Shown: in pieces, positions 1,107-18,800 of the stretch
Position numbering within the stretch: position 1 is the first letter of the stretch
How the letters are laid out: each line of letters begins with the position of its first letter
Assembly: GCA_020632075.1 (NCBI GenBank)
Contig: JACKGH010000001.1
Span: 195,216-259,215 of the forward strand
DNA: 64,000 bases
Origin: Candidatus Nomurabacteria bacterium
GTDB taxonomy: Bacteria > Patescibacteriota > Minisyncoccia > Phycocordibacterales > UBA918
Direction: 5' to 3'
Program-made: the position numbers and the translations under genes
Notes under the pieces: generated by a model
Databases searched by the model: none
What the model saw: only the letters and a program-made list of their open reading frames with translations
What the model was told of the DNA's origin: nothing

Positions 1107-2429
1107 ATGGCAAAACCGCTCATTGTAGCTAGGGATCTTTCGATTATTTACAACAAGGGTAAGTCGAATGAATTTAAAGCCCTCCAGGGTGTGAACACTG
1201 ATATCTACGAAGGTGAGTACATTATTCTCTTCGGTCCGTCTGGTTGTGGGAAATCTACCCTCATGTATTCGATCCAAGGTTCTCTACCGCCGGGAGAAGG
1301 AACCTTGCTTATCAAGGGTGATGATGTGTACTCGTACCCGCCGGCCGAGCGTGTCTACTTCCAGCGTTACGTGATGGGTATTATTTTCCAGCAGTTCAAC
1401 CTCATCATGTCACTCTCAGTGCTCGACAATGTAGCGCTTCCAATGATCTTTTGTAATGAAGATAAGCAGACCCGTAACCGTCGCGCGCAATCACTCCTTG
1501 ATCGATTTGGCGTAGGTCACGTGTCACACAAGATCCCAGCAATGCTTTCTGGAGGTCAGCAACAGCGTGTGTCTGTGTCACGCTCCATGGTGAATGACCC
1601 GAAGATCCTTTTGGCCGACGAACCAACCGGTAACCTTGACTCCGTTTCGACACAGCAGGTAATGGACAAGATCGATGAGATCAACACGTTTGACCGCCGT
1701 ACCATTATCATGGTGTCCCACAACGCTGCTCACCTGAGCTATGCGCACCGGGTGTACTACCTCAAGGACGGACGTATTTTGCGCGAGGTGGTCAATCCAC
1801 AGCGTAAGCAGATAAAGCCTGTCCGAGAAGGGGAGACGATCGTGACTGAGCTTGAGCAGCTTGCACGTCTGTATCCGTATGACTCTGTAGACACTTGGCG
1901 AGTAAAAAGTATGGTCAATTACCTGACTCAGGACTACACATTTGATCAGTTGCAGCGTCTTGAACGAGCAACGAGTTTGTTTATTCAAGGCAAGATCGAT
2001 CGAGACTCATTCATCAAAGCACTGATACTTCCACTCGAGCGTGGTGGGGTAGAGGTGAGTGAGACAGAAGCACGCCGTATGGCAAGTGTCACTGAGCGCA
2101 TGCTCGATCAGGCGGCTGATATCAAGCGATATCGAGCTAGAAAGGATAATGACAATGTGTTCTTTAGTCAGCATAAGCTGGCTGAGCGTATGCGGGATCA
2201 TCTGATGCATGAATATCGGATTAAGCTTACCAAAGAGCAAAATAACAACATGACTGAACTGATCGCTGACCGCGTAACAGGGGTAACTGAAGCGGCAGAG
2301 ATGAACGAACGTATGACGAAGGGCATACGCTCTGGTGGTTTGGCTTTGAGTGAGAAGGAGGCAGACGACCTCTCGCGACATTTTGAAAAGATCGTTGCTC
2401 AAGGAGTAGACGTAAGTTACAAAAAATAG
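1107..2429 (+). CDS. ABC transporter ATP-binding protein, FtsE/MacB/LolD family, with ~215-aa C-terminal extension
   Basis: Walker A GPSGCGKST, Q-loop IFQQ, signature LSGGQQQRVSVSRS, Walker B ILLADEPTGNLD, H-loop VSHN. The C-terminal half is charged and coiled-coil-like and is not part of a canonical ABC domain. Confidence 0.85.
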   Translation: MAKPLIVARDLSIIYNKGKSNEFKALQGVNTDIYEGEYIILFGPSGCGKSTLMYSIQGSLPPGEGTLLIKGDDVYSYPPAERVYFQRYVMGIIFQQFNLIMSLSVLDNVALPMIFCNEDKQTRNRRAQSLLDRFGVGHVSHKIPAMLSGGQQQRVSVSRSMVNDPKILLADEPTGNLDSVSTQQVMDKIDEINTFDRRTIIMVSHNAAHLSYAHRVYYLKDGRILREVVNPQRKQIKPVREGETIVTELEQLARLYPYDSVDTWRVKSMVNYLTQDYTFDQLQRLERATSLFIQGKIDRDSFIKALILPLERGGVEVSETEARRMASVTERMLDQAADIKRYRARKDNDNVFFSQHKLAERMRDHLMHEYRIKLTKEQNNNMTELIADRVTGVTEAAEMNERMTKGIRSGGLALSEKEADDLSRHFEKIVAQGVDVSYKK

Positions 2430-2431
2430 AT

Positions 2432-3652
2432 ATGCGCGTCCAAGATCTAGCACAACTCTCAACTCGTATGTTCAAGACCAATCCACTCCGTACATGGTTG
2501 ACTATTCTTGGTATGGGTGTTGGGACAGGCGCGGTGGTGGTGTTGGTGGGGCTTGGATTTGGTCTCCAGAAGATCATTCTTGAGCAGATCGTGTTTGGTG
2601 ATTCTCTGCTTTCTCTCGGTGTCTCAGCAAGTGGTAGCGCGAAAGAGTTGCAGCTTACTCCAGAAACTGTTCAGGAGATCGAGGAAAATGAATTGGTGGT
2701 AGACGCTGCACCGCTCGCACGTTTTCCAGCTCTTGTCACGTATAAAGGATTAACAGGTAACGTTTTCATTCAAGGTGTTGAGCCACCATATTTGCGCTTT
2801 GCGGGTGTAACTGCTGAAGCTGGAGAAGCCTTTACTGATGAAGATGCGGGTGACACAAATACCATTATGCTTTCACCAGCCGTTTTGAAACTTTTCGGAG
2901 TTGCTGATGATGAGATGGATTCATTTATTGGTGAGAAAGTTTCATTCCGGCTTTTAGTACCTTCGGAGACCAACCCTGAAGATGTTAGCGAAATCGTGAT
3001 CGAGAAAGAGTACACTGTGCGCGGCATAACTAAAGAGCAGGGAGTACTCAATGTGATGATGATGCTTCCAGAGCTCAGAAACTACGTTGGTATCGATAAA
3101 TATGAACGCATTCAGGTTAACGTGATCGACAATGAAGCGCTACCAGTTGTTGAAAAATGGCTCGTAGAGGAGAAAAAGTTTAGAGTAACTGCTTTGTCTA
3201 AGACGGTTGAACAAGCCTCCAAGATCTTTCAAGGCATCCAGGCAGTACTAGCGGTCTTTGGTGGTATTGCGCTAGTTGTGTCGGCCATCGGCATGTTCAA
3301 CACTATGACAGTAACGCTTTTGGAGCGTACGAAAGAAATCGGTATTATGCGTACCATTGGAGCAGCGCCAAACGACGTAAAGTATCTGTTCGTTTCGGAA
3401 TCGATCGTAGTAGGTTTTCTGGGAGGAATAACGGGAATTTTAATGGGTGTGGTGCTTGGGTTCACAGTAAATGTGCTTCTTAACTGGCTAGCGAAGAGCC
3501 AGGGTGGTCAAGCTGTAAGCCTCTTCTCGTTCCCGTTCGATTTTTTGCTGTTCATTGCACTTTTCTCTGCTGCAGTAGGGTACTTGACCGGTATTTTCCC
3601 AGCTAGTCGCGCATCAAAGCTCAATCCGCTTGATGCGATTCGCTACGAGTAA
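2432..3652 (+). CDS. ABC transporter permease, FtsX/MacB family (TM1, large extracytoplasmic domain, three C-terminal TMs)
   Basis: One N-terminal TM, a ~220-aa ectodomain, and a C-terminal FtsX-like 3-TM bundle (GIMRTIGAAPNDVKYLFVSESIVVGFLGG). Sits immediately after the ATPase with a 2-nt gap. Confidence 0.8.
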   Translation: MRVQDLAQLSTRMFKTNPLRTWLTILGMGVGTGAVVVLVGLGFGLQKIILEQIVFGDSLLSLGVSASGSAKELQLTPETVQEIEENELVVDAAPLARFPALVTYKGLTGNVFIQGVEPPYLRFAGVTAEAGEAFTDEDAGDTNTIMLSPAVLKLFGVADDEMDSFIGEKVSFRLLVPSETNPEDVSEIVIEKEYTVRGITKEQGVLNVMMMLPELRNYVGIDKYERIQVNVIDNEALPVVEKWLVEEKKFRVTALSKTVEQASKIFQGIQAVLAVFGGIALVVSAIGMFNTMTVTLLERTKEIGIMRTIGAAPNDVKYLFVSESIVVGFLGGITGILMGVVLGFTVNVLLNWLAKSQGGQAVSLFSFPFDFLLFIALFSAAVGYLTGIFPASRASKLNPLDAIRYE

Positions 3653-5738: not shown

Positions 5739-6692
5739 ATGAAAGTGCGCGCGACAAAGTTGCTATTTTTGGCTCTTTTTGTGCCTGTACTGTTTTTCAG
5801 TACAGGTGTTTCTGAAGTGCTAGCTGGATTCGGTATTACACCGCCGTATGTTCGTAATACTAGTTTGACTCGTAATTCCATTTATGAGCAACAGATTCTC
5901 TTGGTGCGCGGTGAAGCAAACGTTGCACATAATGCTGAAGTTTCAATTGATGCTCCTGAGATCCAAGACTGGATCGAGATTGTTGAAGGTGAAGTTATTC
6001 CAATGCCAAAGGGTGTGCAAAAAGTGCCAATGACTGTACGAATCAAAGTGCCGAGCGATGCTGAGTTCAAGGATTATGAGGGCGCTATCCGTATTCGTAC
6101 ACTTCCAGCTAGCGGTGAAGTCCCCTCTGGAGCAGTTAATATTTCACTCGGGGCACGTGTTGACATTGACCTCTCAGTTATCGATAGAGAAATCAAGGAG
6201 TTTAGAGTACGTAGAATTTCAGTACATGATTTGAACGAAGGTAAAAAAGTTGCTTGGTTGTTTTTTCCTGGAAAGATTCGCTTTGACATGATGATTGAAA
6301 ATACAGGAAATGTAGATGTCGCACCATCTCAAGTAGAGTTCAGGATATTTGATCGTGCAGGCAAGGTACTGCTCGAGGAAACTACTAACCTTGGTAAAAT
6401 AGTAAAAGTGGCACCATATGGTACTGAAACCGTTACAGCAGCTCTGCCAACTCGTTTGCCCGCTGGTGGATACATTGCTCGATATAAAATTTACAATGGT
6501 GAGGACGTAGTGCAAGAAGGAGATCTAACCTTGAATGTACTGCCTGCTGGAACATTGGACGTGGCAGGATTTGGCTTCATCGGGCTCTCACTCGCACACA
6601 AGGTCTCAATCTTGTTGCCGATCTTTGCAGTGATTATTGCTGGTCTCTACGTACTGCATGCACGCAGACGTAACAAAATGACCAGCATGTAG
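5739..6692 (+). CDS. DUF916/DUF3324-like cell-surface protein (signal peptide, two-domain ectodomain, C-terminal TM anchor with basic tail), CscA-like
   Basis: Signal peptide, then motif WIEIVEGEVIPMPKGVQKVPMTVRIKVPSDAEFKDYEGAIRI, then a second domain ENTGNVDVAPSQVEFRIFDRAGKVL, then a C-terminal TM followed by HARRRNK. Paralogous to the CDSs at 23000 and 23982. Confidence 0.6.
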   Translation: MKVRATKLLFLALFVPVLFFSTGVSEVLAGFGITPPYVRNTSLTRNSIYEQQILLVRGEANVAHNAEVSIDAPEIQDWIEIVEGEVIPMPKGVQKVPMTVRIKVPSDAEFKDYEGAIRIRTLPASGEVPSGAVNISLGARVDIDLSVIDREIKEFRVRRISVHDLNEGKKVAWLFFPGKIRFDMMIENTGNVDVAPSQVEFRIFDRAGKVLLEETTNLGKIVKVAPYGTETVTAALPTRLPAGGYIARYKIYNGEDVVQEGDLTLNVLPAGTLDVAGFGFIGLSLAHKVSILLPIFAVIIAGLYVLHARRRNKMTSM

Positions 6693-6693
6693 T

Positions 6694-7800
6694 ATGGCTG
6701 CACTTGTTCGTTATTGTATCGCTTTCATTCTCTTCGTACTTCCAGTTTCAGTCTGGGCTGGTAATCAGTATGCAACAACAACTCTCTCCTTGAGTATTTG
6801 TGGTAATGAACTTGTTGATGATGGGGAGGACTGTGATGTCATTGGTGAAATCGGTACCTATAGCCAAACCATTGCTGGTCGTCAGTGTACACCACAGTGT
6901 CTCTGGGGTCCGTACTGTGGAGACGGTATTCTGCAAACAGTACACGGTGAAGAGTGTGACGATGGTAATAATGATGACGGGGATTTCTGTTCAGCAGTAT
7001 GTCGCATTGAACCGGCAGGTTCTGGCGGCGGCGGTTCGTCTGGCGGTAATACCGGTGGCGGGGGAGGAAGAGATACAGAACTCGGCGACACTATCGTGAA
7101 TATTGTTGGGCGCGGATACCCATCTCGTACCATCAATTTTTTGCTAGACACAGAATCTGTCGGAACTGTGCAGTCAGATCGTGAGGGTAACTTTGAGTTT
7201 GCGACTGACGCTTCACCAGGCACTGCAACTCTTGGAATCTGGTCCACCGATAGTTCTGGGAGGCGTTCAATTACTCTAAACAATACCTTTGATATTACAC
7301 AAGGAGCAATCACTAACTTAAACGGAATCTTACTGCCACCAACCATTGCTGTGCAAAGTCAAAACATTGACCCTGGTGCGGTGATTACCGTATCAGGTCA
7401 GAGTGTTCCAAGTGCGCGAGTTGAGTTGCATGTAGACGATAGCGATCTTGTAGAAACCACCACCGCGGGTTCAAATGGAAACTGGACCATATCTCTAGAC
7501 ACCAGTCGGCTGAGCATAGCTGAGCACATACTTCGAGCCCGCACAGTAGTTGGTACTCCGCCACTTACTACAGAGAGTGCATTTAGTACCTCACTACAGT
7601 TGTTTGTTGGAGTTGATGGACAGATAAGTCAACCTTCAGACCTTAATCGCGACGGCCTCGTGAACTTGATCGACTTTTCTATTCTGATCTTCTGGTGGGG
7701 TACAAGTGGTGGCGATTCTGATCCTCCTGCTGATATTAATCAGAATGGACAAGTTAGCTTGGAAGACTTTTCTATTTTGCTATTTAACTGGACCGGATAA
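6694..7800 (+). CDS. Secreted protein with Cys-rich CxxDDGN repeats, Gly-rich linker, Ig-like region and C-terminal dockerin-like domain
   Basis: CGNELVDDGEDCD and CGDGILQTVHGEECDDGNNDDGDFCSAVC repeats. C-terminal pair DLNRDGLVNLIDFSIL and DINQNGQVSLEDFSIL matches the dockerin Ca-binding repeat pattern DxNxDGxVNxxDxxxL. Confidence 0.7.
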   Translation: MAALVRYCIAFILFVLPVSVWAGNQYATTTLSLSICGNELVDDGEDCDVIGEIGTYSQTIAGRQCTPQCLWGPYCGDGILQTVHGEECDDGNNDDGDFCSAVCRIEPAGSGGGGSSGGNTGGGGGRDTELGDTIVNIVGRGYPSRTINFLLDTESVGTVQSDREGNFEFATDASPGTATLGIWSTDSSGRRSITLNNTFDITQGAITNLNGILLPPTIAVQSQNIDPGAVITVSGQSVPSARVELHVDDSDLVETTTAGSNGNWTISLDTSRLSIAEHILRARTVVGTPPLTTESAFSTSLQLFVGVDGQISQPSDLNRDGLVNLIDFSILIFWWGTSGGDSDPPADINQNGQVSLEDFSILLFNWTG

Positions 7801-7801
7801 A

Positions 7802-7833
7802 ACACTGATGACCGTCAGTGTTTTACTTTATTT
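7802..7833 (+). terminator. Rho-independent terminator (ACACTGA / TCAGTGT, then TTTACTTTATTT)
   Basis: Hairpin plus T-rich tract directly after the stop codon. Confidence 0.65.
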
Positions 7834-7912
7834 GAGCAAAATTTGTGTATAAGTGACACATTCGAAAAGTGTGATGTCGTACAATTAGGTTGTATCTGCA
7901 AAGGAGGTGATC

Positions 7913-7951
7913 ATGTTTAGTATCACTGCACGCGTTTTTTTAAATGCGTGA
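7913..7951 (+). CDS. Candidate 12-aa leader peptide (MFSITARVFLNA) with perfect Shine-Dalgarno, followed by a CACGC/GCGTG hairpin containing a U-run
   Basis: AAAGGAGGTGATC sits 4 nt upstream of the ATG and is the strongest SD in the window. The ORF ends inside a small hairpin upstream of the WxL-like gene. Confidence 0.3.
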   Translation: MFSITARVFLNA

Positions 7952-8099
7952 GCACTTCAGCCGAGTGTCACTTTGCAGGTATGCTTACAGTGCATTATCA
8001 CAAGAAGCGGAGTGGAGACCACTTCTTGGTACGAGCGAAGCTCGTCTGTATAACCACACCACGGAATACAGGCTGTAAGACTAATACAACGTAGAGTAT

Positions 8100-9212
8100 A
8101 TGCACAGAGCGTCCAACACGTTCTCAGTGCTCCAAGCAACAGCAGCGATCGTAAGCTTCGCAGTGATCCTTTGGTCATTCGGCCTACCATCATTCCACTT
8201 TGCGGAAGCTGCAAATGTCACTTCGTACAGCGACACACTCTCGACCTCACAGCCGAGCGTTGCCGCAGATCACACTATTGTGTTTACAACCCCTTCAGGT
8301 GTTGCAAACAACAATACAATTACCATTGACCTTTCTTCCTTCAACGGAACAAGTTCTATTACAGCAACCGATATCGCTGTCTCAACAACTTCTGCCTTCA
8401 CCGTAGCCGCAACTTGTGGTGGTGGTGAGCAGATTGGAGCTGCATTCGGTACCAATGACAGTACACTCACACTGACATTGTGTGCTTCTGAAGGCTATAG
8501 TATTCCAGCTAATGGAACAACTACCATTGCAATCGGAGGTACAAATAAACTTGTAAACCCAACTGCTGGGTCATATCAGATCCCGCTTACTGCAGGAGCT
8601 TCTGACCTAGGAGAAACACGGGTTGCTATCGTTGATACAGTTACAGTTACTGCTTCGGTTGATACATACTTCCAGTTCTCAGTAGCTGGAGTAACATCCG
8701 GACAAACCGTAAATGGAACGACGACAGGTGGAGCAACAAGTGCAACTTTGATCCCATTTGGTGAACTGTCCGCTGGTTCAGCCAGTACAGCCGCCCAGGA
8801 TCTTACAGTTGTGACTAACGCTCGAAATGGTTTCACGGTGACAGTGACCTCAGACGGTCAGCTTGATTCTATTACTGGTGCTGACATCGATGGTTTCCGA
8901 AACGGGGGCTACGATGATACGCCACAGGCATGGGAAGCACCAAGTGTGACGATCGGTCAGGAAAATACGTATGGTCACTGGGGTATTACCTCAGACGATA
9001 CGGACATCTTTGCCGCAACTGAGACATACGTTTCAGCATCGACAACAGCAGTGCAGATCTTTACTCACGATAGTCCTGTAGATGGTGTTAATTTCCCATC
9101 AACTGGTACTAGTACGACGCGAGTAGGATACACCGTGCAGGTGAGTGCGTTGCAGGAAGCTGCAACGGACTATGAAGCTACGCTGACATACGTAGCAACA
9201 CCAGTATTCTAA
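8100..9212 (+). CDS. Secreted surface protein with divergent C-terminal WxL-like domain (aromatic positions F/Y instead of W), CscB-like
   Basis: N-terminal TM/signal, T/S-rich. The C-terminal ~190 aa align with the C-terminus of the giant protein at 15855: IPFGELSAGSASTAAQDLTVVTNARNGFTVTVTSDGQL against IGFGSVSIGTSQEAAQHLTINTNATEGYQLFLFVDQQL, and terminal ATLTYVATPVF against AAISYLVTPVF. Confidence 0.6.
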   Translation: MHRASNTFSVLQATAAIVSFAVILWSFGLPSFHFAEAANVTSYSDTLSTSQPSVAADHTIVFTTPSGVANNNTITIDLSSFNGTSSITATDIAVSTTSAFTVAATCGGGEQIGAAFGTNDSTLTLTLCASEGYSIPANGTTTIAIGGTNKLVNPTAGSYQIPLTAGASDLGETRVAIVDTVTVTASVDTYFQFSVAGVTSGQTVNGTTTGGATSATLIPFGELSAGSASTAAQDLTVVTNARNGFTVTVTSDGQLDSITGADIDGFRNGGYDDTPQAWEAPSVTIGQENTYGHWGITSDDTDIFAATETYVSASTTAVQIFTHDSPVDGVNFPSTGTSTTRVGYTVQVSALQEAATDYEATLTYVATPVF

Positions 9213-9243
9213 AGAATATTGGCTCTAAGCTTGGAGTTAAAAC

Positions 9244-9282
9244 GCAAAAAACCCTATCTCCCACCACGAGTGGGGTTTTTTG
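9244..9282 (+). terminator. Rho-independent terminator (CCCAC / GTGGG, then GTTTTTTG), with an A-run upstream
   Basis: AAAAAACCCTATCTCCCACCACGAGTGGGGTTTTTTG. Confidence 0.7.
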
Positions 9283-9436
9283 TTGCTTGAGCCAACGAGC
9301 GGAGCGACTATGGCGAAAGTACGCCAGTAATTTGCTTATTTCCTAAAGCAAATTATCGGCGTGTCAAATCTTCACGATTCGGAATCTGGCGGTAGCGAGC
9401 TGTGAACAAATGCTCTAAGAACAGGCATAAACTCCT

Positions 9437-9466
9437 TTGTGCACGTTGTGTACAGTCACTTAAAAT
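9437..9466 (+). promoter_or_regulatory. Putative sigma70-like promoter TTGTGC-N17-TTAAAAT upstream of the first cohesin-like gene
   Basis: Hexamer spacing read from the sequence. The likely ATG at ~9497 is preceded by AAGG. Confidence 0.3.
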
Positions 9467-9472
9467 CACTGC

Positions 9473-10570
9473 TTGCCATTGCTATACTTAAGGTACATGA
9501 AGAGAATGTCGGGACGTTTTAGCTGGTTATACTTCAGTTTACTTTTCCTTGCTGCGCCAAGTGTGTCCAGCGCCGCTTCACTATACATTGATCCTGCCAC
9601 TAGCGAACTCAATCGTGGGGACTCCGTCACCATGGCAGTGCGAGTCGATACTGACGAAAATGCTCGTGAGTGCGTCAATGCAGTTGATGCAGTCATCTCA
9701 TATTCTCAATCGATCGAACCAATTGATGTTTCGGTCGGTGACTCGATCTTTAGCATGTGGGTTGAAAGTCCAACCATCAACAGAGAGAGCCGCACCATCA
9801 CTTTTGCAGGCGGAATTCCAAATGGATACTGTGGTCGTGTTGTTGGAGACCCTCGCTTGACCAACGTTCTTGCTGAGATCGTATTTCGTTCTCCTGGTGT
9901 GCTTGTTGGTGGTGGTGATGTTGACCGCACAAAGGCAGAGGTGTTTTTTGAGGATGCTACGACTGCGTATCTAAACGATGGGTTTGGTACAAAGGCATCC
10001 CTTACTACTTATGGTGCAAAAATAGCTTTGAACGATCGTCTTGGCACTGAGCTCAAGAATGATTGGCGCACAGAGGTCGCTGCTGACAATATCCCTCCTG
10101 AGCCATTCACGATTGAATTGGTCACACCTGGTTCTGAGTCTCGAGGACAGTACTACATTGTATTCAACACAACTGACAAGCAGACAGGTATTGACCAGTA
10201 CCAGGTCATGGAAGAGCCGATCTCACAATTCAGATCCTTCCGTTGGGGCGCCTCTGATGCACCGTGGATTGAAGCACGTAGTCCATATGTACTTCAAGAC
10301 CAAAATCTCAATAGCATCATTCGCGTGAAAGCGATTGATAAGGCTGGTAATGAATACGTCGCTCATTTTATACCTGAAGACTCACTGCGAACGCTTTCTC
10401 AAGCGTCGATGATCATGGTTCTATTCATTATTCTCATCGTACTGCTTGTCCTAGCGATAGTGATCACTTTAATTCGTTACATAAAACGAAAACACCAGCA
10501 GCGCAAAGATTCTCTTCCAGAAGAGAACGAGGGTGATGCAGAAGAAGTAATCGAAACTGAACATGACTAA
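9473..10570 (+). CDS. Membrane-anchored surface protein with N-terminal cohesin-like domain (probable true start ATG ~9497, MKRMSGRF...)
   Basis: Signal peptide, then a cohesin-like beta-sandwich pattern (SLYIDPATSELNRGDSVTMAVRVDTD...SIFSMWVESPT...ITFAGGIPNGYCG). C-terminal TM followed by RYIKRKHQQRK tail. Paralogous to the N-terminal domains of the CDSs at 10563 and 13024. Confidence 0.6.
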   Translation: MPLLYLRYMKRMSGRFSWLYFSLLFLAAPSVSSAASLYIDPATSELNRGDSVTMAVRVDTDENARECVNAVDAVISYSQSIEPIDVSVGDSIFSMWVESPTINRESRTITFAGGIPNGYCGRVVGDPRLTNVLAEIVFRSPGVLVGGGDVDRTKAEVFFEDATTAYLNDGFGTKASLTTYGAKIALNDRLGTELKNDWRTEVAADNIPPEPFTIELVTPGSESRGQYYIVFNTTDKQTGIDQYQVMEEPISQFRSFRWGASDAPWIEARSPYVLQDQNLNSIIRVKAIDKAGNEYVAHFIPEDSLRTLSQASMIMVLFIILIVLLVLAIVITLIRYIKRKHQQRKDSLPEENEGDAEEVIETEHD

Positions 10571-12323
10571 GTATCACTGTACAATGCAGCATGTTGGCAA
10601 GTATCTCGTCGCACTGGCAGTGTCGTTAGTGCTTCATGCTGTATTTGTAGCGGTTGCTGACGCTGCAACTCTCTCACTCTCACCAGCGACTGGTGTCTAT
10701 GCGTCAGGCAACACGTTTACGGCGCGGGTAGTAGTGCAACCGCAAGGGAAGTCAGTCAATGCGGCAGAAGGGACTCTGGCCTTTAATCCAAACGAACTTG
10801 CAGTTGTCTCTGTGAATCGAACTGGCTCCATATTCAATCTTTGGGTCACTGAGCCTACTTTTTCAAACAGTGCTGGAACGATCTCCTTCAGCGGTGGTGT
10901 GCCATCAGGGTATAGTGGCAATTCAGGTACGGTGATGAACATCATATTTCGTGCAGTGGGTGCTGGTACAGCAAAAGTAAATTTCAAGAACGGTTCAGTG
11001 CTAGCCAATGACGGACGCGGGACGAATATTCTCACTTCCATGGGCGGTGGAACATACACCATTCAAGCAAAGAGTGAGGCTCCGATACCAGAAGTGATAG
11101 AGTATGTTGCTCCGGCAAACACTCCAGGTAAGCCAGTTATTTCATCGAAGACTCATCCTGACCCTGATGGCTGGTACGCAAACAATAAAGCTGAGCTGAC
11201 CTGGACACTGCCAAGTGGCATTACTGCGATCCGTACACTTCTCGACGATGTATCATCCAGTGTTCCCACAAAGGTCTATGACAATCCAGTTAGCTCAATT
11301 ACCTTGTCAGATCTTGATGAGGGAGTGCAGTACTTCCACTTACAATTCAAGAATGAAGATGGTTGGGGAGTGATCAATCACTACCGTTTGGCAGTTGATA
11401 CACGACCACCAACTTCGATCGTGATCAAACATCCAGAAGGAGCAAATCTTGCGAACCCGATCCAGACCCTAGTTGTAGAGGTGAAAGATGACCTCTCGCC
11501 TGTGAATCGTTTCATGATATCAGTAGACGGCGCTGACAAGTATGAGTACATCGACAAAACTGGCTCGAGCACCATTGAACTTCCTTCACTAGAACCGGGT
11601 CATCACACTATTGTTATAGAGGCATACGATGCAGCAGGCAACTTCATTGTCGGTACGCATGCCTTCATGCTTGAATCATTTGATCGACCGGAATTCACTG
11701 AGTATCCAACTGAGATCACTCCAGAGGTGATTCCAGTGATCAAGGGTCAGACACGTTCAAATGCCTCTGTGGAGGTTTCACTCAGCCGTGTTGGAAGTGA
11801 TGCGGTGCTGTATACCATATCAAGTGATGCGGCTGGTGAGTTTGTGTTCATACCAGAGGGCAGGTTTGAGACTGGTGTCTATGAGCTGACAGCAGTTGCT
11901 ACAGACGAGTTTGGCGCCAGGAGTGAAGTGTCTGATGCGATCAGGATCGCGGTGCAGCAGTCCGGATACCTTCGTATTGGTTCATTCTTAGTCAGTGTTC
12001 TTTCAGTGATCGTACCACTCATTGTACTGCTCTTTGCTCTCATTTTTGGTGTTTGGTATCTCTTCATGTATGCGCGGCGCTTCCGTCGTCGTGTGCGTGT
12101 TGAGTCGACTGAAGCAATGCAGATCCTTCGTCGCGAGTTTGGCGACCTGCAAATGACCTTACGTCAGCAAGAGTCAGCCCTGCAGCAGTCACGCAAGACC
12201 AAGAAGCTTACCAAGGCAGAGGCAGCAATGATCGAAGTGTTCGATAGGGCATTGCAGCAATCACAGATGAAGGTAGAGAAGGAGATCGAAGATGTTACAG
12301 ATTTAACCCGTAAACAAGAATAA
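10563..12323 (+). CDS. Membrane-anchored surface protein: cohesin-like N-terminal domain, Ig/Fn3-like repeats, C-terminal TM and cytoplasmic coiled-coil tail
   Basis: LSLSPATGVYASGNTFTARVVVQPQGKSVNAAEGTLAFNPNELAVVSV...ISFSGGVPSGYSG resembles type-I cohesin. The TM IGSFLVSVLSVIVPLIVLLFALIF is followed by an R-rich stop-transfer and a coiled coil. Confidence 0.6.
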   Translation: MTKYHCTMQHVGKYLVALAVSLVLHAVFVAVADAATLSLSPATGVYASGNTFTARVVVQPQGKSVNAAEGTLAFNPNELAVVSVNRTGSIFNLWVTEPTFSNSAGTISFSGGVPSGYSGNSGTVMNIIFRAVGAGTAKVNFKNGSVLANDGRGTNILTSMGGGTYTIQAKSEAPIPEVIEYVAPANTPGKPVISSKTHPDPDGWYANNKAELTWTLPSGITAIRTLLDDVSSSVPTKVYDNPVSSITLSDLDEGVQYFHLQFKNEDGWGVINHYRLAVDTRPPTSIVIKHPEGANLANPIQTLVVEVKDDLSPVNRFMISVDGADKYEYIDKTGSSTIELPSLEPGHHTIVIEAYDAAGNFIVGTHAFMLESFDRPEFTEYPTEITPEVIPVIKGQTRSNASVEVSLSRVGSDAVLYTISSDAAGEFVFIPEGRFETGVYELTAVATDEFGARSEVSDAIRIAVQQSGYLRIGSFLVSVLSVIVPLIVLLFALIFGVWYLFMYARRFRRRVRVESTEAMQILRREFGDLQMTLRQQESALQQSRKTKKLTKAEAAMIEVFDRALQQSQMKVEKEIEDVTDLTRKQE

Positions 12324-12327
12324 CCGT

Positions 12328-13014
12328 ATGCAAGAAAATCATAAGACAGGATGGATCACCAAGAAGAATATATTTGTAGCGCTCTTGGGAGCAGTACTGA
12401 CGTACATGCTCGTTACCTCAGTGGTAGATACTCGCATGCAGGCAGTTGAGCAAAACATCAGAGATCGACTTTCTGATCAAGAAGTACTGCTGGCTGCGAT
12501 CGCTGAGACAACCGCACGCAACGGTGCTGATGCGGTAACTGAGAGAGTGGTGCAGGACTGCTCACTTACTGAACGAAGTAGTTTTGACACTTTGCTTGGT
12601 CGTTTGGATAAAGGACTTTCATACAGTGAGCTCACTGAACTTGAACGGTTGTTTGGTCGGTGTGGTAGTTTCTACTCAGAACGAAAAGCAATGATGGTTT
12701 CTCGTCTGTCTCGCGAGACAGAGATCTATGAAAGTTACGTAGAGCAGCTAAGTACGGTCACTGGCGAAGATCATGCGGAAGAATTTCGTGTAGCTGAGTG
12801 GAAAGCCTTAGCTACAAATGAGCAAGAGCGCAGTGAGTTGCTTGCGTCTCTTGTTAACTTACAAGATCAGATCATTGCCACATTGCTCAATGGTGCTAGT
12901 GCAACATCGCCTGAAATGACACCAATCTTGTATGAGGTACGCGAAGCGCAAGACACCCTTATAGTTGTGACAAAGCAGATATCTGATCTCCGTACCAGCC
13001 TTGTTGCATTGTAG
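12328..13014 (+). CDS. Hypothetical N-terminally membrane-anchored protein
   Basis: One N-terminal TM. The soluble part is helical and coiled-coil-like. No recognisable family. Confidence 0.5.
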   Translation: MQENHKTGWITKKNIFVALLGAVLTYMLVTSVVDTRMQAVEQNIRDRLSDQEVLLAAIAETTARNGADAVTERVVQDCSLTERSSFDTLLGRLDKGLSYSELTELERLFGRCGSFYSERKAMMVSRLSRETEIYESYVEQLSTVTGEDHAEEFRVAEWKALATNEQERSELLASLVNLQDQIIATLLNGASATSPEMTPILYEVREAQDTLIVVTKQISDLRTSLVAL

Positions 13015-13023
13015 GTATGAATT

Positions 13024-13770
13024 ATGGATCGAATCTTTCAACTTCTAAAAAGAGCACTTACACTAAAGTCGAGAAGTCGGACAGTTCGTTTCATGTTTCC
13101 TGCAGTGATCTCGTTTGCAGCAGTGCTCGGCGCTGCTGTGATCACAGCTGATGACGTTTCGTATGTACGCCTTGAAAGCTCGTCTGCGACCGTTGAAGCA
13201 GGACAACCATTTTCAATTGCGGTGTATGCCTACGCACACGTTCCAGTAAATGCAGTCGATATCAAACTTAAGTTTGACGGCAATGCGGTCGAGGTTACTG
13301 GTGTCGATACAGGACAGTCTGTTATCACGATCTGGACAGAGGAACCTGTCATCGAAAAGAACAGCGTAACACTCCGTGGTGGTACGTATAGAAAGGGGTT
13401 TGTGTCTGAGCACTTGATCGCCACGATAAACCTGCGCTCACTGCAGACAGGACAAAAAAGTTTCTCTGTTTCCGATGTGGTACTGCTTGCTGGTGATGGA
13501 GCAGGTACTCCAGTAAGCATAGGTCAGACAACTGATTCATCAGTCAGCTTATTCGTCTACGATGAAAATACTAGTCCTGAGAGTATAGGTGTTAACGTCG
13601 AAGTTAGAATTCTTACCGACATTGACGGAAACGGAAAAGTTGACCTGCGAGATATTAGTGCCTTTATGTCCGCATGGCATGATAAAAAGGTGCTTTATGA
13701 CTTCAACGGCGATGGTAGAATGACGTTCAGAGATTTCTCGATCATTCTGGCTGATTTCTTCTTCAAATAG
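13024..13770 (+). CDS. Secreted protein combining an N-terminal cohesin-like domain with a C-terminal dockerin-like domain
   Basis: Cohesin-like VRLESSSATVEAGQPFSIAVYAYAHVPVNAVDIKLKFDGNAVEVTGVD...VITIWTEEPV. Dockerin pair DIDGNGKVDLRDISAFMSAW and DFNGDGRMTFRDFSIILADF. Confidence 0.65.
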   Translation: MDRIFQLLKRALTLKSRSRTVRFMFPAVISFAAVLGAAVITADDVSYVRLESSSATVEAGQPFSIAVYAYAHVPVNAVDIKLKFDGNAVEVTGVDTGQSVITIWTEEPVIEKNSVTLRGGTYRKGFVSEHLIATINLRSLQTGQKSFSVSDVVLLAGDGAGTPVSIGQTTDSSVSLFVYDENTSPESIGVNVEVRILTDIDGNGKVDLRDISAFMSAWHDKKVLYDFNGDGRMTFRDFSIILADFFFK

Positions 13771-15854: not shown

Positions 15855-18800
15855 ATGCTTCAGTGGGAAACCTTGAGGGTTTATTTTGTGAACCAAAAAA
15901 GTAGATTTGGTCTGTATAGAAGAGCGGCCTCTTTTCTTTTAGTACTGCTCGTGTTTTTTTCTAATGTTACTAGCCCGCTTCTTCAGCTGCTACCGGGCAT
16001 TATCCGTGACCATGCGCCGATTGGACCCAGCACCGCATTTGCAGCTACAGGAGACTTCGCCACTTTCCGCGAAAGTACCGCTGGTGACACAATTTCACAA
16101 GGCGGACCCCCAGTTGCTATCAAATGGGATACTACGATTAGCTCTAATGCTAACCTTGGTCTACAAGCGAATACTTCGGATATAGATCTAGCAGATGGTG
16201 GCAAATACTTTGTTACCTACAGTGCATGGGCTTATGAAGGCACCGCTGGTGGTACTAATCGACGTACAGTAGATACATATCTTACACTCAATAACGTTCC
16301 GCTTGCATACGGTCGCGGTTCTGGCTACATCCGGGACAATGAGGGTGATACAAGCGCGTATGCGAACGGAGGCGCTATTATTAGTGCTGCTGCCGGAGAT
16401 GACCTCGAAGCCTACATTAAGCGAAATGATGGTAATGCAACCGCTGGCACTCAGTTGCAACCTGGTGTAAATGGCATATCGGTGCTTAAACTTCCTGAAT
16501 CTGCTGATTATTTGCGTGCGCGAATTGCAGCCACGAGCTCAAGTATCAGTGCTAACACCAGCTTTACCGATGTCGTGTGGGATACTGCTGATGAGGTCGA
16601 TACAGGCTCATTTGCTTTTACGCCGTCGTCTGGAAACATCACTATGAAAGGTGCAGCAGGTACTAACTTTATGATCACTGCTAATGTTGGTCTCTACGTA
16701 TCGGGCGGAGGAACCACTCGTCAAAATTATGAAATGCGACTGACACTTGACGGAGTTGAAGTGCCTGGTAGTCGCGTGACCACATACCTGCGCGGTTCAG
16801 ACAATACCTGGTATGGGACGCTCGCATACATGGGAATCATCAGCAAGACTTCAGCCTCGGATCAGACCCTCAATATTGAGATCAGGCGTGAATCCACTGG
16901 TGGCGCGACCACAGTGATACAGGGCGACAAAGCAGGTCTTGCGATCATGGCCTTGCCAGACATTGCTGAAGTGGTACGTCTTACTGATAACTCGGGTACT
17001 CAACAGCCAGCCCTAACTTCAAAGCCTCTTTATTTTGACACGAATGATGAGGTTGATGCTTCGGCTTTTGGACACAGCACTTCAGCCAACCAAGACAGAG
17101 TTACTATAAGTGCTGCTGGAGACTATCTTTTCTTTGCAACTGCCTACTCAACTACATCAAATTCTGATAATAATCGAGAACCTTTCAGAATAGACTGGAA
17201 TAAAACAGGCTCGCAGCAAAATTACGGTGGTTTTGGGGCGTTTAACCGCAGCAACAGTACCTTTAGTGGCGGTGCTTCTGGTGCCATATTGCTGAATGGA
17301 CTTGGTACGTCTGACTACGTACACCTCAAATATATAGATGAGACAACAAGTGCACCAGAAAACGGTACTTTTAATGCTGGGAGGGTAGCGCTCCAAGGTA
17401 TCGCACTCAATGATAACTTTTTTGGTCTAGACGTTGAGGTTAGCGCTAGCGGGACACAGACATCAGCTGTCGACATCCCAACCAGCAATACCTACGTCGG
17501 TGGACAATTTGTAGTCACGGAAAATTCTGGATCACGCAATGTCACGAATGTCACTATCACTGAGTCAGGTACCGTTGATGGGGCAAATGGTCTTGATAAC
17601 ATCAAACTGTACTATGACCTCGATACTTCGAGTCCGTATGACTGTGCTAGTGAATCCTACGGCGGAGGAGAGTCGCAGTTTGGTAGTACTGATACAAACG
17701 GCTTCTCGGGCGCAGACGGCAGTTCTAGCTTTTCTGATTCTGTAGCGATTACAACCACTAAAGCACTGTGTCTCTATCCTGTCATGGACATTGTTGCTGC
17801 CGCAACTGATGGTGATACTATAGAACTCTCAATCGATAATCCTACTACTGATGTAGTAGTAACTGGTGGTGCCTCAATCGGCCCCGCAACAACACAGGCG
17901 ATTAGTGGAGCGACGACTCTCCGGAGTGCTGATCTGACGCAGACACACTACCACTGGCGTAACGATGATGGCGACGAGACAGATACAGTTGCAAATGCCA
18001 CACCGACAGTCAAGAACACCACTTCAAGCGGTTTTGGCGCCAGTACTGCTGGTAATGACCCTGTGCTCACTGTTCCGGCAAACGCTGTAGAGGGTGATTA
18101 TATGGTTGTTATTTTTACCACCGATGATAACAACCCAACACAAACCCCGACACCCCCGAGTAGTGAAACCTGGACACTCCAAGAGTCTGGATTGATGCCA
18201 GTTGACGGTACAGCTGCCGTCTCACCTCCGGCCGCTTGGATCTATACGAAGTTTGTTTCAGCTGATGATGAGGCCAATGCGGGGACCAAGACCTATACCT
18301 GGCAAGACAGTGCTGGCAGCGAGGAACAGGCTGCGCAACTGATTTTGCTCAATAATGTGAAAGGCTGGGGTGAATTTAACACTAATCTACTCACTGGTAA
18401 TCAAACCAGCATCAATGCTCCAAGCGTGACCACCACTGAAACAAATGAGATCGTATTTCACGCTGCATTTAAAGATAACAATGCGACTTTTACAGCACTT
18501 CCGACAGGTTCTACAGTCGTGAACAGCGGTTGGGGTCCAGCTAGTGACGCTGGTGCAGCACTTGGAATCGTATATGCAGTATACCCAACAGTAGGAGCAA
18601 CCGGCGCTAAGACATTTAGTTTAGCTAGCAATGAAGCAAATGGTTTCACTTTTTCATTGCAGCCGACCAATGCAGGGGGAGCAACGTCCATCGAAGGTGC
18701 AGAGGACACTCCAGCTATTGGATTCGCTAACGGCACAGTGAGAAGGCTCCGCTTTGAGGTTTCTGCCGAAGGATCCACGTCATCACTTCCAACCGTGTTT

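What the first reader, a model, noticed from the sequence alone, without database searches (positions are those of the whole stretch)
6694..13770. Cohesin-dockerin-like assembly set: membrane-anchored cohesin-like proteins plus dockerin-bearing secreted partners
Two proteins end with textbook dockerin duplicated Ca-binding segments:
- 6694: DLNRDGLVNLIDFSIL + DINQNGQVSLEDFSIL
- 13024: DIDGNGKVDLRDISAF + DFNGDGRMTFRDFSII

Three neighbouring proteins (9473, 10563, 13024) begin with a paralogous ~140-aa domain whose pattern resembles type-I cohesins (LSLSPATGVYASGNTFTARVVVQP.GKSVNAAEGTLAFNPNELAVVSV ... ISFSGGVPSGY). Two of these are C-terminally membrane-anchored, which would make them anchoring scaffold candidates. 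The 13024 protein carries both a cohesin-like and a dockerin module, which would make it an adaptor candidate. The 6694 protein couples its dockerin to Cys-rich CxxDDGN repeats.

The arrangement suggests a modular, calcium-dependent protein-docking system on the cell surface, embedded in the WxL-like island.
Basis: partly seen in the sequence, partly recalled or inferred. Interest (0 to 1): 0.8.

Follow-up and report, generated by a model that had tools for sequence, protein, structure and literature searches.

The report
Membrane-anchored cohesin-dockerin set in Patescibacteria
An ultra-small Candidatus Kaiserbacteria bacterium carries three real cohesin modules and two real dockerin modules (the plug-and-socket parts known from cellulosomes), with no enzymes attached, inside a roughly 25-kb surface-appendage operon found in many related species, where they probably help assemble or anchor a surface structure.

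Summary
Both C-terminal modules (6694 and 13024 proteins) pass Pfam's Dockerin_1 gathering score. The three N-terminal domains (9473, 10563, 13024) are one paralogous family. AlphaFold2 models of two of them (10563: pLDDT 96.9; 13024: moderate confidence) match only cohesins among the 50 best solved structures listed by Foldseek. None reaches Pfam's Cohesin threshold directly, but homologues do.

The window is from a Candidatus Kaiserbacteria MAG. The set is fixed in composition: across 80 species loci, cohesin and dockerin profiles hit only orthologues of these genes. It lies in a strongly syntenic operon: ABC/FtsX, two proteins sharing a C-terminal domain distantly related to the CPR Pam-pilin domain (one 2379 aa), three two-domain membrane proteins, and a beta-propeller protein.

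This is not a cellulosome. There are no CAZymes, no CBM and no multi-cohesin scaffoldin.

Best reading: helix-anchored single cohesins dock non-enzymatic dockerin proteins to build a surface adhesion or fibre complex. Binding itself is untested. Co-evolution weakly favours 6694-dockerin with 10563-cohesin.

It is a new variant of a known kind. I found no description of it in the literature searched.

The parts
6694..7800 (+). Secreted dockerin client: signal peptide, Cys-rich CxxDDGN repeats, Gly/Ser linker, Ig-like domains, C-terminal dockerin.
   Evidence: Pfam DUF4215, Big_6 and Dockerin_1. TIGR02232. Orthologue present in 54 loci.
7627..7797 (+). Dockerin module D1 (residues 312-368 of the 6694 protein), with two near-symmetric Ca-loop + helix segments.
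   Evidence: Dockerin_1 26.5 bits against GA 22.9. It is the most conserved part of the protein: 72-97% identity per block against a 61% mean. Retained in 54/54 orthologues.
9473..10570 (+). Membrane-anchored cohesin protein 1: signal peptide, cohesin, about 130-aa domain, C-terminal TM helix, short acidic tail. The TTG start is uncertain.
9575..10027 (+). Cohesin module C1 (about residues 35-185). It has an insertion relative to C2.
   Evidence: External cohesin-family profile E 1.9e-20. Alignment.
10563..12323 (+). Membrane-anchored cohesin protein 2: signal peptide, cohesin, Ig-like stalk (Big_13), TM helix, and a charged cytoplasmic tail of about 90 aa that looks coiled-coil by eye.
10665..11072 (+). 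Cohesin module C2 (residues 35-170).
   Evidence: AF2 pLDDT 96.9. The 50 best Foldseek matches listed are all cohesins, best E 3.5e-11.
12328..13014 (+). Small protein with an N-terminal TM helix and a helical domain, co-operonic between the cohesin genes. Role unknown.
   Evidence: Conserved position in the loci. No family hit.
13024..13770 (+). Cohesin+dockerin protein (candidate adaptor). The N-terminal hydrophobic segment is either a signal peptide or a signal anchor.
13156..13563 (+). Cohesin module C3 (about residues 45-180).
   Evidence: Profile E 9.8e-18. Pfam Cohesin 14.4 bits, below threshold. AF2 block pLDDT 58-83, lower toward the C-terminal end of the domain. The 50 best Foldseek matches listed are all cohesins, best 2vo8 with target-normalised TM 0.81.
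13609..13767 (+). Dockerin module D2 (residues 196-248).
   Evidence: Dockerin_1 24.0 bits against GA 22.9. AF2 helices at 208-220 and 235-247, block pLDDT 75-85. A dockerin-type tail is present in 67 of 68 orthologues, by my reading of the tails listed.
5739..6692 (+). Context: two-domain beta-rich protein with signal peptide and C-terminal TM helix. Its stop is 2 nt before the 6694 start. Paralogue of the 23000 protein.
   Evidence: Weak FxLYD/PACE hits.
8100..9212 (+). Context: 370-aa secreted protein with a pilin-like C-terminal domain, flanked by terminator-like hairpins.
   Evidence: CPR_Pam_pilin_C hits 12 of the 90 scanned members, which included 18 orthologues of this gene; best E 2.7e-6, below the cut-off. 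Hairpins.
15855..22994 (+). Context: 2379-aa giant surface protein ending in the same C-terminal domain as the 8100 protein.
   Evidence: 31% identity over 180 aa, E 4e-14.
1107..3652 (+). Context: ABC ATPase plus MacB/FtsX-type permease, always at the head of the syntenic block.

Best explanation
This is a genuine, non-cellulosomal cohesin-dockerin set that forms part of a conserved cell-surface assembly operon of Paceibacteria-type Patescibacteria.

Shown:
- There are three cohesin-fold modules and two dockerin modules.
- Two cohesins sit at the distal end of type-I membrane proteins anchored by a C-terminal helix.
- One dockerin ends a secreted Cys-rich/Ig-like protein with no enzyme domain.
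- One protein carries a cohesin and a dockerin together.
- The composition and gene order are fixed across dozens of species.
- The dockerin of the 6694 protein is the most conserved segment of that protein.

Inferred:
- The anchored cohesins (9473, 10563) capture the dockerins in a Ca2+-dependent way.
- The most likely pairing is 6694-dockerin on 10563-cohesin, with 13024-dockerin on 9473-cohesin or on another 13024 copy.
- The result would be a membrane-tethered protein platform that displays an adhesive Cys-rich head. It may organise or anchor the neighbouring Pam-like fibre proteins and the 2379-aa protein used for contact with a host cell or substrate.
For: - Dockerin_1 scores above gathering score for both modules.
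- Cohesin fold: AF2 pLDDT 96.9. The 50 best Foldseek matches listed are all cohesins, including type-I cohesins solved in complex with dockerins and single-cohesin anchors OlpA and OlpC. The 13024 model gives the same result.
- Family link to Pfam Cohesin: 14/20 members hit it. The best library match to the profile, P0143, has 9 Pfam Cohesin stretches (275 bits) and a Dockerin_1.
- Synteny across the fetched species loci, drawn from 334 matching stretches found in species-representative genomes.
- In those loci, cohesin and dockerin profiles hit only orthologues of these five modules.
- Dockerin tails are retained in 54/54 orthologues of 6694 and in 67/68 of 13024.
- The 6694 dockerin is 72-97% conserved against a 61% protein mean.
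- A reduced variant locus (L069, L071, L080) keeps the 6694 dockerin protein directly next to the two anchored cohesin proteins.
- 17 of the top 150 representatives fuse 9473-like and 10563-like proteins.
- Partial Mantel tests: 6694doc-10563coh r=0.24, p=0.005. 13024doc-13024coh r=0.19, p=0.005. 13024doc-9473coh r=0.16, p=0.03.
Against: - No binding test or complex prediction could be run.
- The full-length 13024 model has only moderate confidence (pLDDT 66), and inter-domain contacts are not reported.
- The window's own cohesin domains fail Pfam's Cohesin gathering score.
- Many non-cellulosomal cohesins and dockerins have no demonstrated partner (own knowledge).
- Three cohesins against two dockerins leaves one socket unexplained.
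- Partial Mantel tests are known to be anti-conservative with related sequences. The 13024doc-13024coh signal may only reflect being in the same polypeptide.
- Neither the Pam-like protein (8100) nor the giant protein (15855) carries a dockerin, so their link to the cohesins is purely positional.
Confidence: 0.65

Rival explanations
1. The modules are real cohesin and dockerin folds but do not pair with each other. The dockerins would act as Ca2+-stabilised terminal modules binding something else, such as host-cell surface, cell-wall polymer or S-layer. The cohesin domains would be generic beta-sandwich spacers or ligand-binding heads on membrane stalks.
For: No interaction was tested. One cohesin has no in-locus partner by count: three cohesins and two dockerins in the window, with profiles hitting only those orthologue classes in the loci. 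The 13024 dockerin also scores near EF-hand models (23.2 bits against GA 25.4). Orphan cohesins and dockerins are common outside cellulosomes (own knowledge).
Against: Both module types co-occur strictly within one operon across the species loci and nowhere else in the 20-kb flanks. The reduced variant retains dockerin plus cohesins together. The 6694 dockerin is unusually conserved. There is a co-evolution signal with one specific cohesin.
Confidence: 0.2
2. The cohesin-like N-domains are parts of a donor-strand-exchange fibre system related to the CPR Pam pilus. The anchored 9473 and 10563 proteins would play the PamR role, terminating and tethering the fibre by donating or accepting a strand. 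The dockerins would be accessory.
For: CPR_Pam_pilin_C hits 12 of the 90 scanned members, which included 18 orthologues of 8100. The giant protein shares that C-terminal domain. 5739 and 23000 are two-domain proteins; a signal peptide and C-terminal TM helix are seen in 5739. This is the architecture reported for PamC/PamD chaperones, and PamR is a C-terminally helix-anchored terminator (bioRxiv 10.64898/2026.03.03.709456). Pam pilin N-domains are nine-strand beta-sandwiches.
Against: The Pam hits are below the family cut-off. The Pam paper mentions no cohesin or dockerin and finds Pam pilins mainly in Saccharimonadia and Microgenomatia. The cohesin models match complete, closed cohesin folds rather than strand-deficient Ig folds. 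This rival does not explain two conserved dockerins.
Confidence: 0.12
3. It is a miniature cellulosome-like system for polysaccharide degradation.
For: Cohesin and dockerin are best known from cellulosomes (own knowledge). Single-cohesin anchors such as OlpA and OlpC are among the structural matches.
Against: No glycoside hydrolase, CBM or other enzyme domain was found on any dockerin or cohesin protein, or on the neighbours scanned. There is no multi-cohesin scaffoldin in the window. The only dockerin clients in 81 loci are the two non-enzymatic proteins.
Confidence: 0.03

Closest known systems
Single-cohesin cell-surface anchoring proteins of cellulosomal clostridia (C. thermocellum OlpA and OlpC; PDB 3ul4, 4dh2)
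   Same: One type-I-like cohesin on a cell-anchored protein that captures a dockerin-bearing protein directly at the surface. These structures are among the best matches to the model, with query-normalised TM 0.73-0.80.
   Different: The anchor here is a C-terminal transmembrane helix. From my own knowledge, OlpA and OlpC anchor through SLH modules. The clients here carry no enzymes. The host is a non-cellulolytic ultra-small Patescibacterium. Sequence identity in the structural alignments is only 10-17%.
Ruminococcus flavefaciens ScaE-CttA (an adhesin docked on an anchored cohesin)
   Same: A non-enzymatic adhesive protein uses a C-terminal dockerin to sit on a cell-anchored cohesin (own knowledge). 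A ScaE type-III cohesin (2zf9) is among the matches.
   Different: From my own knowledge, ScaE is sortase-anchored and its partners use X-dockerin dyads, and CttA binds cellulose. Here the head is a Cys-rich DUF4215/myxo-disulfide repeat of unknown ligand.
Non-cellulosomal cohesin/dockerin proteins of Archaeoglobus fulgidus (PDB 2xdh) and Clostridium perfringens (2vo8, 2jh2)
   Same: Cohesin and dockerin occur outside any cellulosome. From my own knowledge, the A. fulgidus protein carries both modules in one polypeptide, as the 13024 protein does. These are top structural matches: 2xdh TM 0.77 and 2vo8 target-normalised TM 0.81.
   Different: Different organisms and gene contexts. No conserved multi-gene surface operon is described for them in what I know.
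Pam pilus system of CPR bacteria (Troman et al., bioRxiv 10.64898/2026.03.03.709456)
   Same: A CPR-specific surface-fibre operon with Sec-exported subunits and helix-anchored accessory proteins. The neighbouring 8100 family is distantly related to the Pam pilin C-domain.
   Different: The Pam operon description contains no cohesin or dockerin. Its pilins are reported mainly in Saccharimonadia and Microgenomatia. The hits here are below the family cut-off.
WxL / Csc cell-surface complex loci of Firmicutes
   Same: Clusters of secreted proteins sharing a C-terminal domain, plus two-domain proteins with a C-terminal TM anchor (own knowledge). There is a weak WxLIP_PGBD hit on the 23913 protein.
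   Different: No WxL-domain hit was found. The WxLIP hit is below gathering score. Cohesin and dockerin are not part of WxL loci as I know them.

Membership tests
Dockerin type I (Pfam PF00404) | Score at or above the Pfam gathering score. | tested here: met
   26.5 bits (6694 protein) and 24.0 bits (13024 protein) against GA 22.9. Close homologues of the 6694 dockerin all carry PF00404.
Dockerin type I (Pfam PF00404) | Two tandem segments, each a 12-residue D-x-[ND]-x-[DN]-G...D Ca-binding loop followed by a helix. | tested here: met
   Four loops found by regex, two per protein. AF2 helices at 208-220 and 235-247 in the 13024 protein, block pLDDT 75-85.
Dockerin type I (Pfam PF00404) | Ca2+-dependent binding to a cohesin. 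| not testable with these tools
   No complex prediction or experiment is available. There is only indirect co-evolution evidence.
Cohesin (Pfam PF00963) | The window protein itself scores at or above the Pfam gathering score. | tested here: not met
   13024 protein: 14.4 bits against GA 24.1. The 9473 and 10563 proteins give no hit at E<=1.
Cohesin (Pfam PF00963) | Homology to the family through intermediate sequences. | tested here: met
   14/20 aligned family members hit PF00963, best E 6.7e-10. The best library match to the profile, P0143, scores 275 bits with 9 Cohesin stretches. The top PDB hits to the profile are cohesins, but marginal (E 0.022).
Cohesin (Pfam PF00963) | All-beta sandwich fold superposable on solved cohesins. 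| tested here: met
   10563 domain: pLDDT 96.9, all-beta. The 50 best Foldseek matches listed are all cohesins, best E 3.5e-11, query-normalised TM up to 0.80. 13024 domain: the 50 listed are all cohesins. The 9473 domain is inferred from the profile only (E 1.9e-20).
Cohesin (Pfam PF00963) | Binds a dockerin. | not testable with these tools
   Not tested.
Cellulosome | Dockerin-bearing carbohydrate-active enzymes. | tested here: not met
   The dockerin proteins carry only Cys-rich, Ig-like or cohesin modules. There are no other dockerins in the window or in 81 loci.
Cellulosome | Scaffoldin with multiple cohesins and a CBM. | tested here: not met
   Each protein has a single cohesin and no CBM hit. 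A 9-cohesin relative exists elsewhere in metagenomes (P0143) but not here.
Pam pilus system (CPR) | Pilin with the Pam C-terminal truncated-Ig domain (NCBIfam NF058581 at cut-off). | tested here: inconclusive
   8100 protein: E 0.017, 15.2 bits against cut-off 55. 12 of the 90 scanned members hit; these are presumably the 8100 orthologues, of which 18 were included. Best E 2.7e-6.
Pam pilus system (CPR) | PapD/FimC-like chaperones with a C-terminal TM helix. | not tested
   5739 has a signal peptide and a C-terminal TM helix, and it aligns with 23000 over two domains.
WxL surface-complex locus | WxL domain (PF13731) on secreted proteins, and DUF916/WxLIP on a TM-anchored partner. | tested here: not met
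   No WxL hit on 8100 or 18 orthologues. WxLIP_PGBD 23.4 bits against GA 27.3 on the 23913 protein only.

The most novel reading that the evidence does not exclude
In Paceibacteria the cohesin-dockerin pair has been recruited as the tethering or organising device of a Pam-like, donor-strand-assembled fibre and its 2379-aa tip adhesin. The helix-anchored cohesins would take the place of the PamR anchor. The cohesin+dockerin protein 13024 could chain head-to-tail. This would be the first case of cohesin-dockerin building an attachment organelle of an episymbiotic ultra-small bacterium rather than an enzyme complex.
Probability: 0.2. Interest if true: 0.75.

Novelty: new variant of a known kind. 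Interest (0 to 1): 0.55.

Why it matters
Patescibacteria (the CPR) make up a large share of bacterial diversity, and how they attach to hosts or surfaces is mostly unknown.

This locus offers a concrete, testable protein-docking system. It has three sockets, two plugs, and defined membrane anchors. It is conserved across the fetched species loci, which were drawn from 334 matching stretches in species-representative genomes. The cohesin family has about 13,000 representatives (50%-identity clusters) in metagenomes.

The few source names attached to the 13024 homologues were 'hypothetical protein' or, in JGI, 'archaellum FlaF'. One homologue of the 10563 domain is already named a cohesin domain-containing protein by NCBI.

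The locus also extends the cohesin-dockerin principle to helix-anchored, enzyme-free surface assemblies. It links them by position to the recently described CPR Pam-type fibres.

Practically, the very conserved 6694 dockerin and its partner could serve as an orthogonal affinity pair.

Tried and rejected
- The genome scan with the 20-sequence alignment A2 failed because it had no conserved stretch. It was redone with the closer set A3.
- A dockerin-only homologue search, meant to find other dockerin-bearing clients, returned only 12 short fragments. It says nothing about clientele.
- PDB sequence searches with the 8100, 9473 and 5739 proteins found nothing meaningful.
- The marginal hit of the cohesin profile to 9rwu 'Pilus assembly protein' (E 0.49) could not be followed. 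The two papers holding the string '9RWU' are unrelated to it.
- The afdb50 fold library was unavailable.
- The full-length 13024 model was intended to show whether the dockerin packs on its own cohesin. It has pLDDT 66 and the tool reports no inter-domain contacts, so nothing can be said.
- A chimeric Coh-linker-Doc construct was considered as a stand-in for a multimer prediction.
- The cellulosome reading is rejected for lack of any enzyme or CBM.
- The strict WxL reading is rejected because the Pfam thresholds are not met.
- Literature searches for cohesin or dockerin in CPR, Parcubacteria or Patescibacteria found no description of this system.
Full report
**1. What is in the sequence**

The region holds a run of same-strand ORFs:

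| ORF | Length | Features |
|---|---|---|
| 5739-6692 | 317 aa | signal peptide, C-terminal TM helix |
| 6694-7800 | 368 aa | see below |
| 8100-9212 | 370 aa | see section 5 |
| 9473-10570 | 365 aa | see below |
| 10563-12323 | 586 aa | overlaps the previous gene by 8 nt |
| 12328-13014 | 228 aa | N-terminal TM helix, helical domain |
| 13024-13770 | 248 aa | see below |
| 13854-15818 | 654 aa | see section 5 |
| 15855-22994 | 2379 aa | see section 5 |

A Ca-loop regular expression over all six reading frames of the 64-kb window finds exactly four loops, two in the 6694 protein and two in the 13024 protein.

**2. Dockerins**

- Pfam Dockerin_1 scores 26.5 bits (6694 protein, residues 315-362) and 24.0 bits (13024 protein, residues 198-241). 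The gathering score is 22.9.
- The 6694 protein also carries a Cys-rich DUF4215/TIGR02232 repeat and Big_6-type Ig domains, and no enzyme domain.
- In the AlphaFold2 model of the 13024 protein, the dockerin region forms two helices (208-220 and 235-247) with block pLDDT 75-85.
- Read directly from the sequence, each dockerin has two near-symmetric segments.
- The two dockerins differ at loop positions 10 and 11, counted from the first Asp. From my own knowledge, these positions are specificity determinants in type-I dockerins. The residues are L-I and L-E in 6694, and L-R and F-R in 13024. This suggests different partners, but it is inference.

**3. Cohesins**

- The three N-terminal domains align with each other at 31% and 26% identity to the first.
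- A profile built only from external homologues of the 10563 domain recovers 10563 (E 2.5e-76), 9473 (E 1.9e-20) and 13024 (E 9.8e-18). Nothing else among the window's 522 six-frame ORFs scores better than E 0.75.
- Directly, Pfam Cohesin is not reached. The 13024 protein scores 14.4 bits against 24.1, and the other two give no hit.
- Indirectly, the link is solid. Of 20 aligned family members, 14 hit PF00963, best E 6.7e-10. One homologue is named 'cohesin domain-containing protein [Candidatus Paceibacterota bacterium]' by NCBI. The best library match to the family profile, P0143, has nine Pfam Cohesin stretches (275 bits) and a terminal Dockerin_1.
- The AF2 model of the 10563 domain is very confident (pLDDT 96.9, pTM 0.89, all-beta). 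The 50 best Foldseek matches listed in the PDB are all cohesins. They are led by type-I cohesins of C. cellulolyticum (2vn5_C, E 3.5e-11, TM 0.77). They include OlpC and OlpA, C. thermocellum CipA cohesins, and the non-cellulosomal A. fulgidus cohesin.
- Type-II cohesins match less well (TM 0.62-0.71). The model has no helix, so it resembles compact type-I or non-cellulosomal cohesins.
- The full-length 13024 model is of moderate quality (pLDDT 66). Its N-domain again matches only cohesins among the 50 listed; the best is C. perfringens 2vo8, with target-normalised TM 0.81.
- The 9473 domain was not modelled. Its assignment rests on the profile E-value.

**4. Source and distribution**

- The 13024 protein is 100% identical to 'hypothetical protein KC877_00685 [Candidatus Kaiserbacteria bacterium]' on a 1.0-Mb contig.
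- A scan of species-representative genomes found 334 matching stretches that encode a relative of the 10563 cohesin. The 80 best are nearly all labelled as Patescibacteria lineages: Kaiserbacteria, Nomurabacteria, Paceibacteria, Parcubacteria, and many automatic 'Saccharibacteria' labels. One is labelled Acidimicrobiales.
- In a library of 1.84 billion 50%-identity representatives, the family profile finds 13,020 proteins at E<=1e-3 and 6,941 at E<=1e-10.

**5. Context: a fixed, syntenic operon**

In nearly every locus with enough flank, the gene order is:

1. fn3/purple-acid-phosphatase-N protein
2. ABC ATPase
3. MacB/FtsX permease
4. 3754
5. 5739
6. 6694 (dockerin)
7. 8100
8. 9473 (cohesin)
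9. 10563 (cohesin)
10. 12328
11. 13024 (cohesin+dockerin)
12. 13854
13. 15855 (giant)
14. 23000
15. 23913

Further observations on the loci:

- Across 81 loci, dockerin and cohesin profiles hit only orthologues of these genes.
- Dockerin tails are retained in 54/54 orthologues of 6694. By my reading of the listed tails, they are retained in 67/68 orthologues of 13024.
- The 6694 dockerin is the most conserved part of its protein, at 72-97% identity per 20-residue block against a 61% mean.
- A reduced variant (L069, L071, L080) keeps ABC/FtsX-3754-5739-6694-9473-10563 but lacks 8100 and the downstream genes. The dockerin protein plus the two anchored cohesins therefore look like the core set.
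- Seventeen of the top 150 representatives are fusions of 9473-like and 10563-like proteins. In the junction inspected (P0145), the fusion keeps the TM helix followed by the second signal peptide. This points to the two proteins acting together.
- Terminator-like hairpins follow 3754, 6694 and 8100. This suggests the units [5739-6694], [8100] and [9473 onward], though consensus scans are weak evidence.

Neighbouring proteins:

- The 8100 protein and the giant protein share a 180-aa C-terminal domain ending in ...TPVF (31% identity, E 4e-14).
- NCBIfam 'CPR_Pam_pilin_C' hits 12 of the 90 orthologues scanned. The set included 18 orthologues of 8100, which are presumably the ones hit. The best E is 2.7e-6, below the 55-bit cut-off.
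- The 5739 and 23000 proteins are paralogous two-domain proteins. The 23913 protein has a sub-threshold WxLIP_PGBD hit.
- The 13854 family contains TolB-like beta-propeller repeats.

The Pam pilus was described in 2026 (bioRxiv 10.64898/2026.03.03.709456). It is a CPR-specific, donor-strand-exchange fibre with helix-anchored PapD-like chaperones and a helix-anchored terminator, PamR. That paper mentions no cohesin, dockerin, WxL or Paceibacteria.

**6. Mechanism**

Shown:
- module identities
- membrane topology elements
- fixed composition
- synteny
- conservation

Inferred:
- The helix-anchored cohesins present sockets away from the membrane. The 10563 cohesin sits on an Ig-like stalk, and the protein has a charged cytoplasmic tail of about 90 aa.
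- The secreted 6694 protein plugs in through its near-invariant dockerin and displays a Cys-rich head.
- The 13024 protein either bridges, as an adaptor, or self-associates.

An exploratory partial Mantel analysis on 44 loci controlled for the divergence of the non-modular parts and of two neighbouring genes:

| Pair | r | p |
|---|---|---|
| 6694 dockerin with 10563 cohesin | 0.24 | 0.005 |
| 13024 dockerin with its own cohesin | 0.19 | 0.005 |
| 13024 dockerin with 9473 cohesin | 0.16 | 0.03 |
| 6694 dockerin with 9473 cohesin | 0.13 | 0.057 |
| 6694 dockerin with 13024 cohesin | 0.06 | 0.19 |
| 13024 dockerin with 10563 cohesin | 0.04 | 0.41 |

Such tests are anti-conservative for related sequences. 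The second signal may only reflect one polypeptide. I treat the pairing as a hypothesis with a probability of about 0.3. The link between the cohesin-dockerin set and the Pam-like proteins rests on position only.

**7. Comparison and novelty**

The system works like a single-cohesin surface anchor (OlpA or OlpC) or like the ScaE-CttA adhesin dock. It differs in several ways:
- It is anchored by a transmembrane helix.
- It has no enzymes, CBM or multi-cohesin scaffoldin.
- It sits in a CPR surface-appendage operon.

It is therefore not a cellulosome. Cohesin and dockerin outside cellulosomes are long known (own knowledge). Relatives are already auto-annotated as cohesin-domain proteins. The module-level finding is therefore not new.

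The conserved operon, the helix-anchored architecture and the association with Pam-like proteins were not found in the literature searched. I rate it a new variant of a known kind, with interest 0.55.

**8. Limits**

- No complex prediction was possible.
- Only two structure jobs were available.
- The fold of 9473 was not modelled.
- The Pam-like and chaperone-like assignments for neighbours are sub-threshold or rest on architecture only.
- The wider genome was not available to look for further dockerin clients.

Noticed in passing
window 8100-9212 and 15855-22994: A 370-aa secreted protein and the 2379-aa giant protein share a 180-aa C-terminal domain ending ...Y[VL]xTPVF (31% identity, E 4e-14). 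The NCBIfam CPR Pam-pilin C-domain model gives sub-threshold hits on 12 of 90 scanned orthologues, a set that included 18 orthologues of 8100. This suggests a Pam-like fibre with a giant tip subunit in Paceibacteria, a class not mentioned in the Pam paper.
   Followed up: partly
window 5739-6692, 23000-24019, 23913-25628: Three paralogous two-domain beta-rich proteins. 5739 and 23000 are 25% identical over 275 aa. 5739 has a signal peptide and a C-terminal TM helix, the architecture reported for PamC/PamD chaperones and seen in WxL-interacting proteins. 23913 also has a LytR_C domain and a sub-threshold WxLIP_PGBD hit.
   Followed up: partly
window 7798-7825 and 9259-9275: Terminator-like hairpins flank the 8100 gene, which sits between two gaps of about 260-300 nt. 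This is the layout expected for a separately and highly expressed structural subunit.
   Followed up: no
P0144-P0149 and others; window 10563-10570: The 9473 and 10563 genes overlap by 8 nt. In 17 of the top 150 family representatives, the two proteins are fused into one ORF. In the junction inspected (P0145), the first TM helix is followed by the second signal peptide. This is either recurrent real fusion or gene-calling read-through.
   Followed up: partly
P0143 (metagenomic protein, 2276 aa): The closest library match to this cohesin family is a scaffoldin-like protein with nine Pfam Cohesin stretches, Big_7 and fn3 domains, and a C-terminal Dockerin_1. Its organism and context are unknown.
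   Followed up: no
window 1107-3652: An ABC ATPase with a long C-terminal extension (440 aa) plus a MacB/FtsX-type permease always head the syntenic block. Their role in exporting or assembling the surface proteins is unexplained.
   Followed up: no
window 13024-13092 and 9473-9508: Start codons are uncertain. NCBI calls the 13024 protein 23 codons shorter (P0023, 225 aa), yet most homologues cover the long form. The 9473 ORF starts at TTG, with in-frame ATGs 8 and 11 codons downstream.
   Followed up: no
homologues of the 13024 protein: JGI names several homologues 'archaellum component FlaF (FlaF/FlaG flagellin family)'. This looks like a mis-annotation of a cohesin+dockerin protein with an N-terminal hydrophobic segment.
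   Followed up: no
window 13854-15818: A 654-aa protein with a long acidic, Thr/Ser-rich low-complexity region followed by TolB-like beta-propeller repeats. Only the C-terminal half is conserved among orthologues.
   Followed up: no
L069, L071, L080: A reduced variant of the locus lacks the 8100, 12328, 13024, 13854 and giant genes but keeps the dockerin protein next to the two anchored cohesin proteins. L080 has an extra cohesin-like ORF on the opposite strand (11656-12249).
   Followed up: partly
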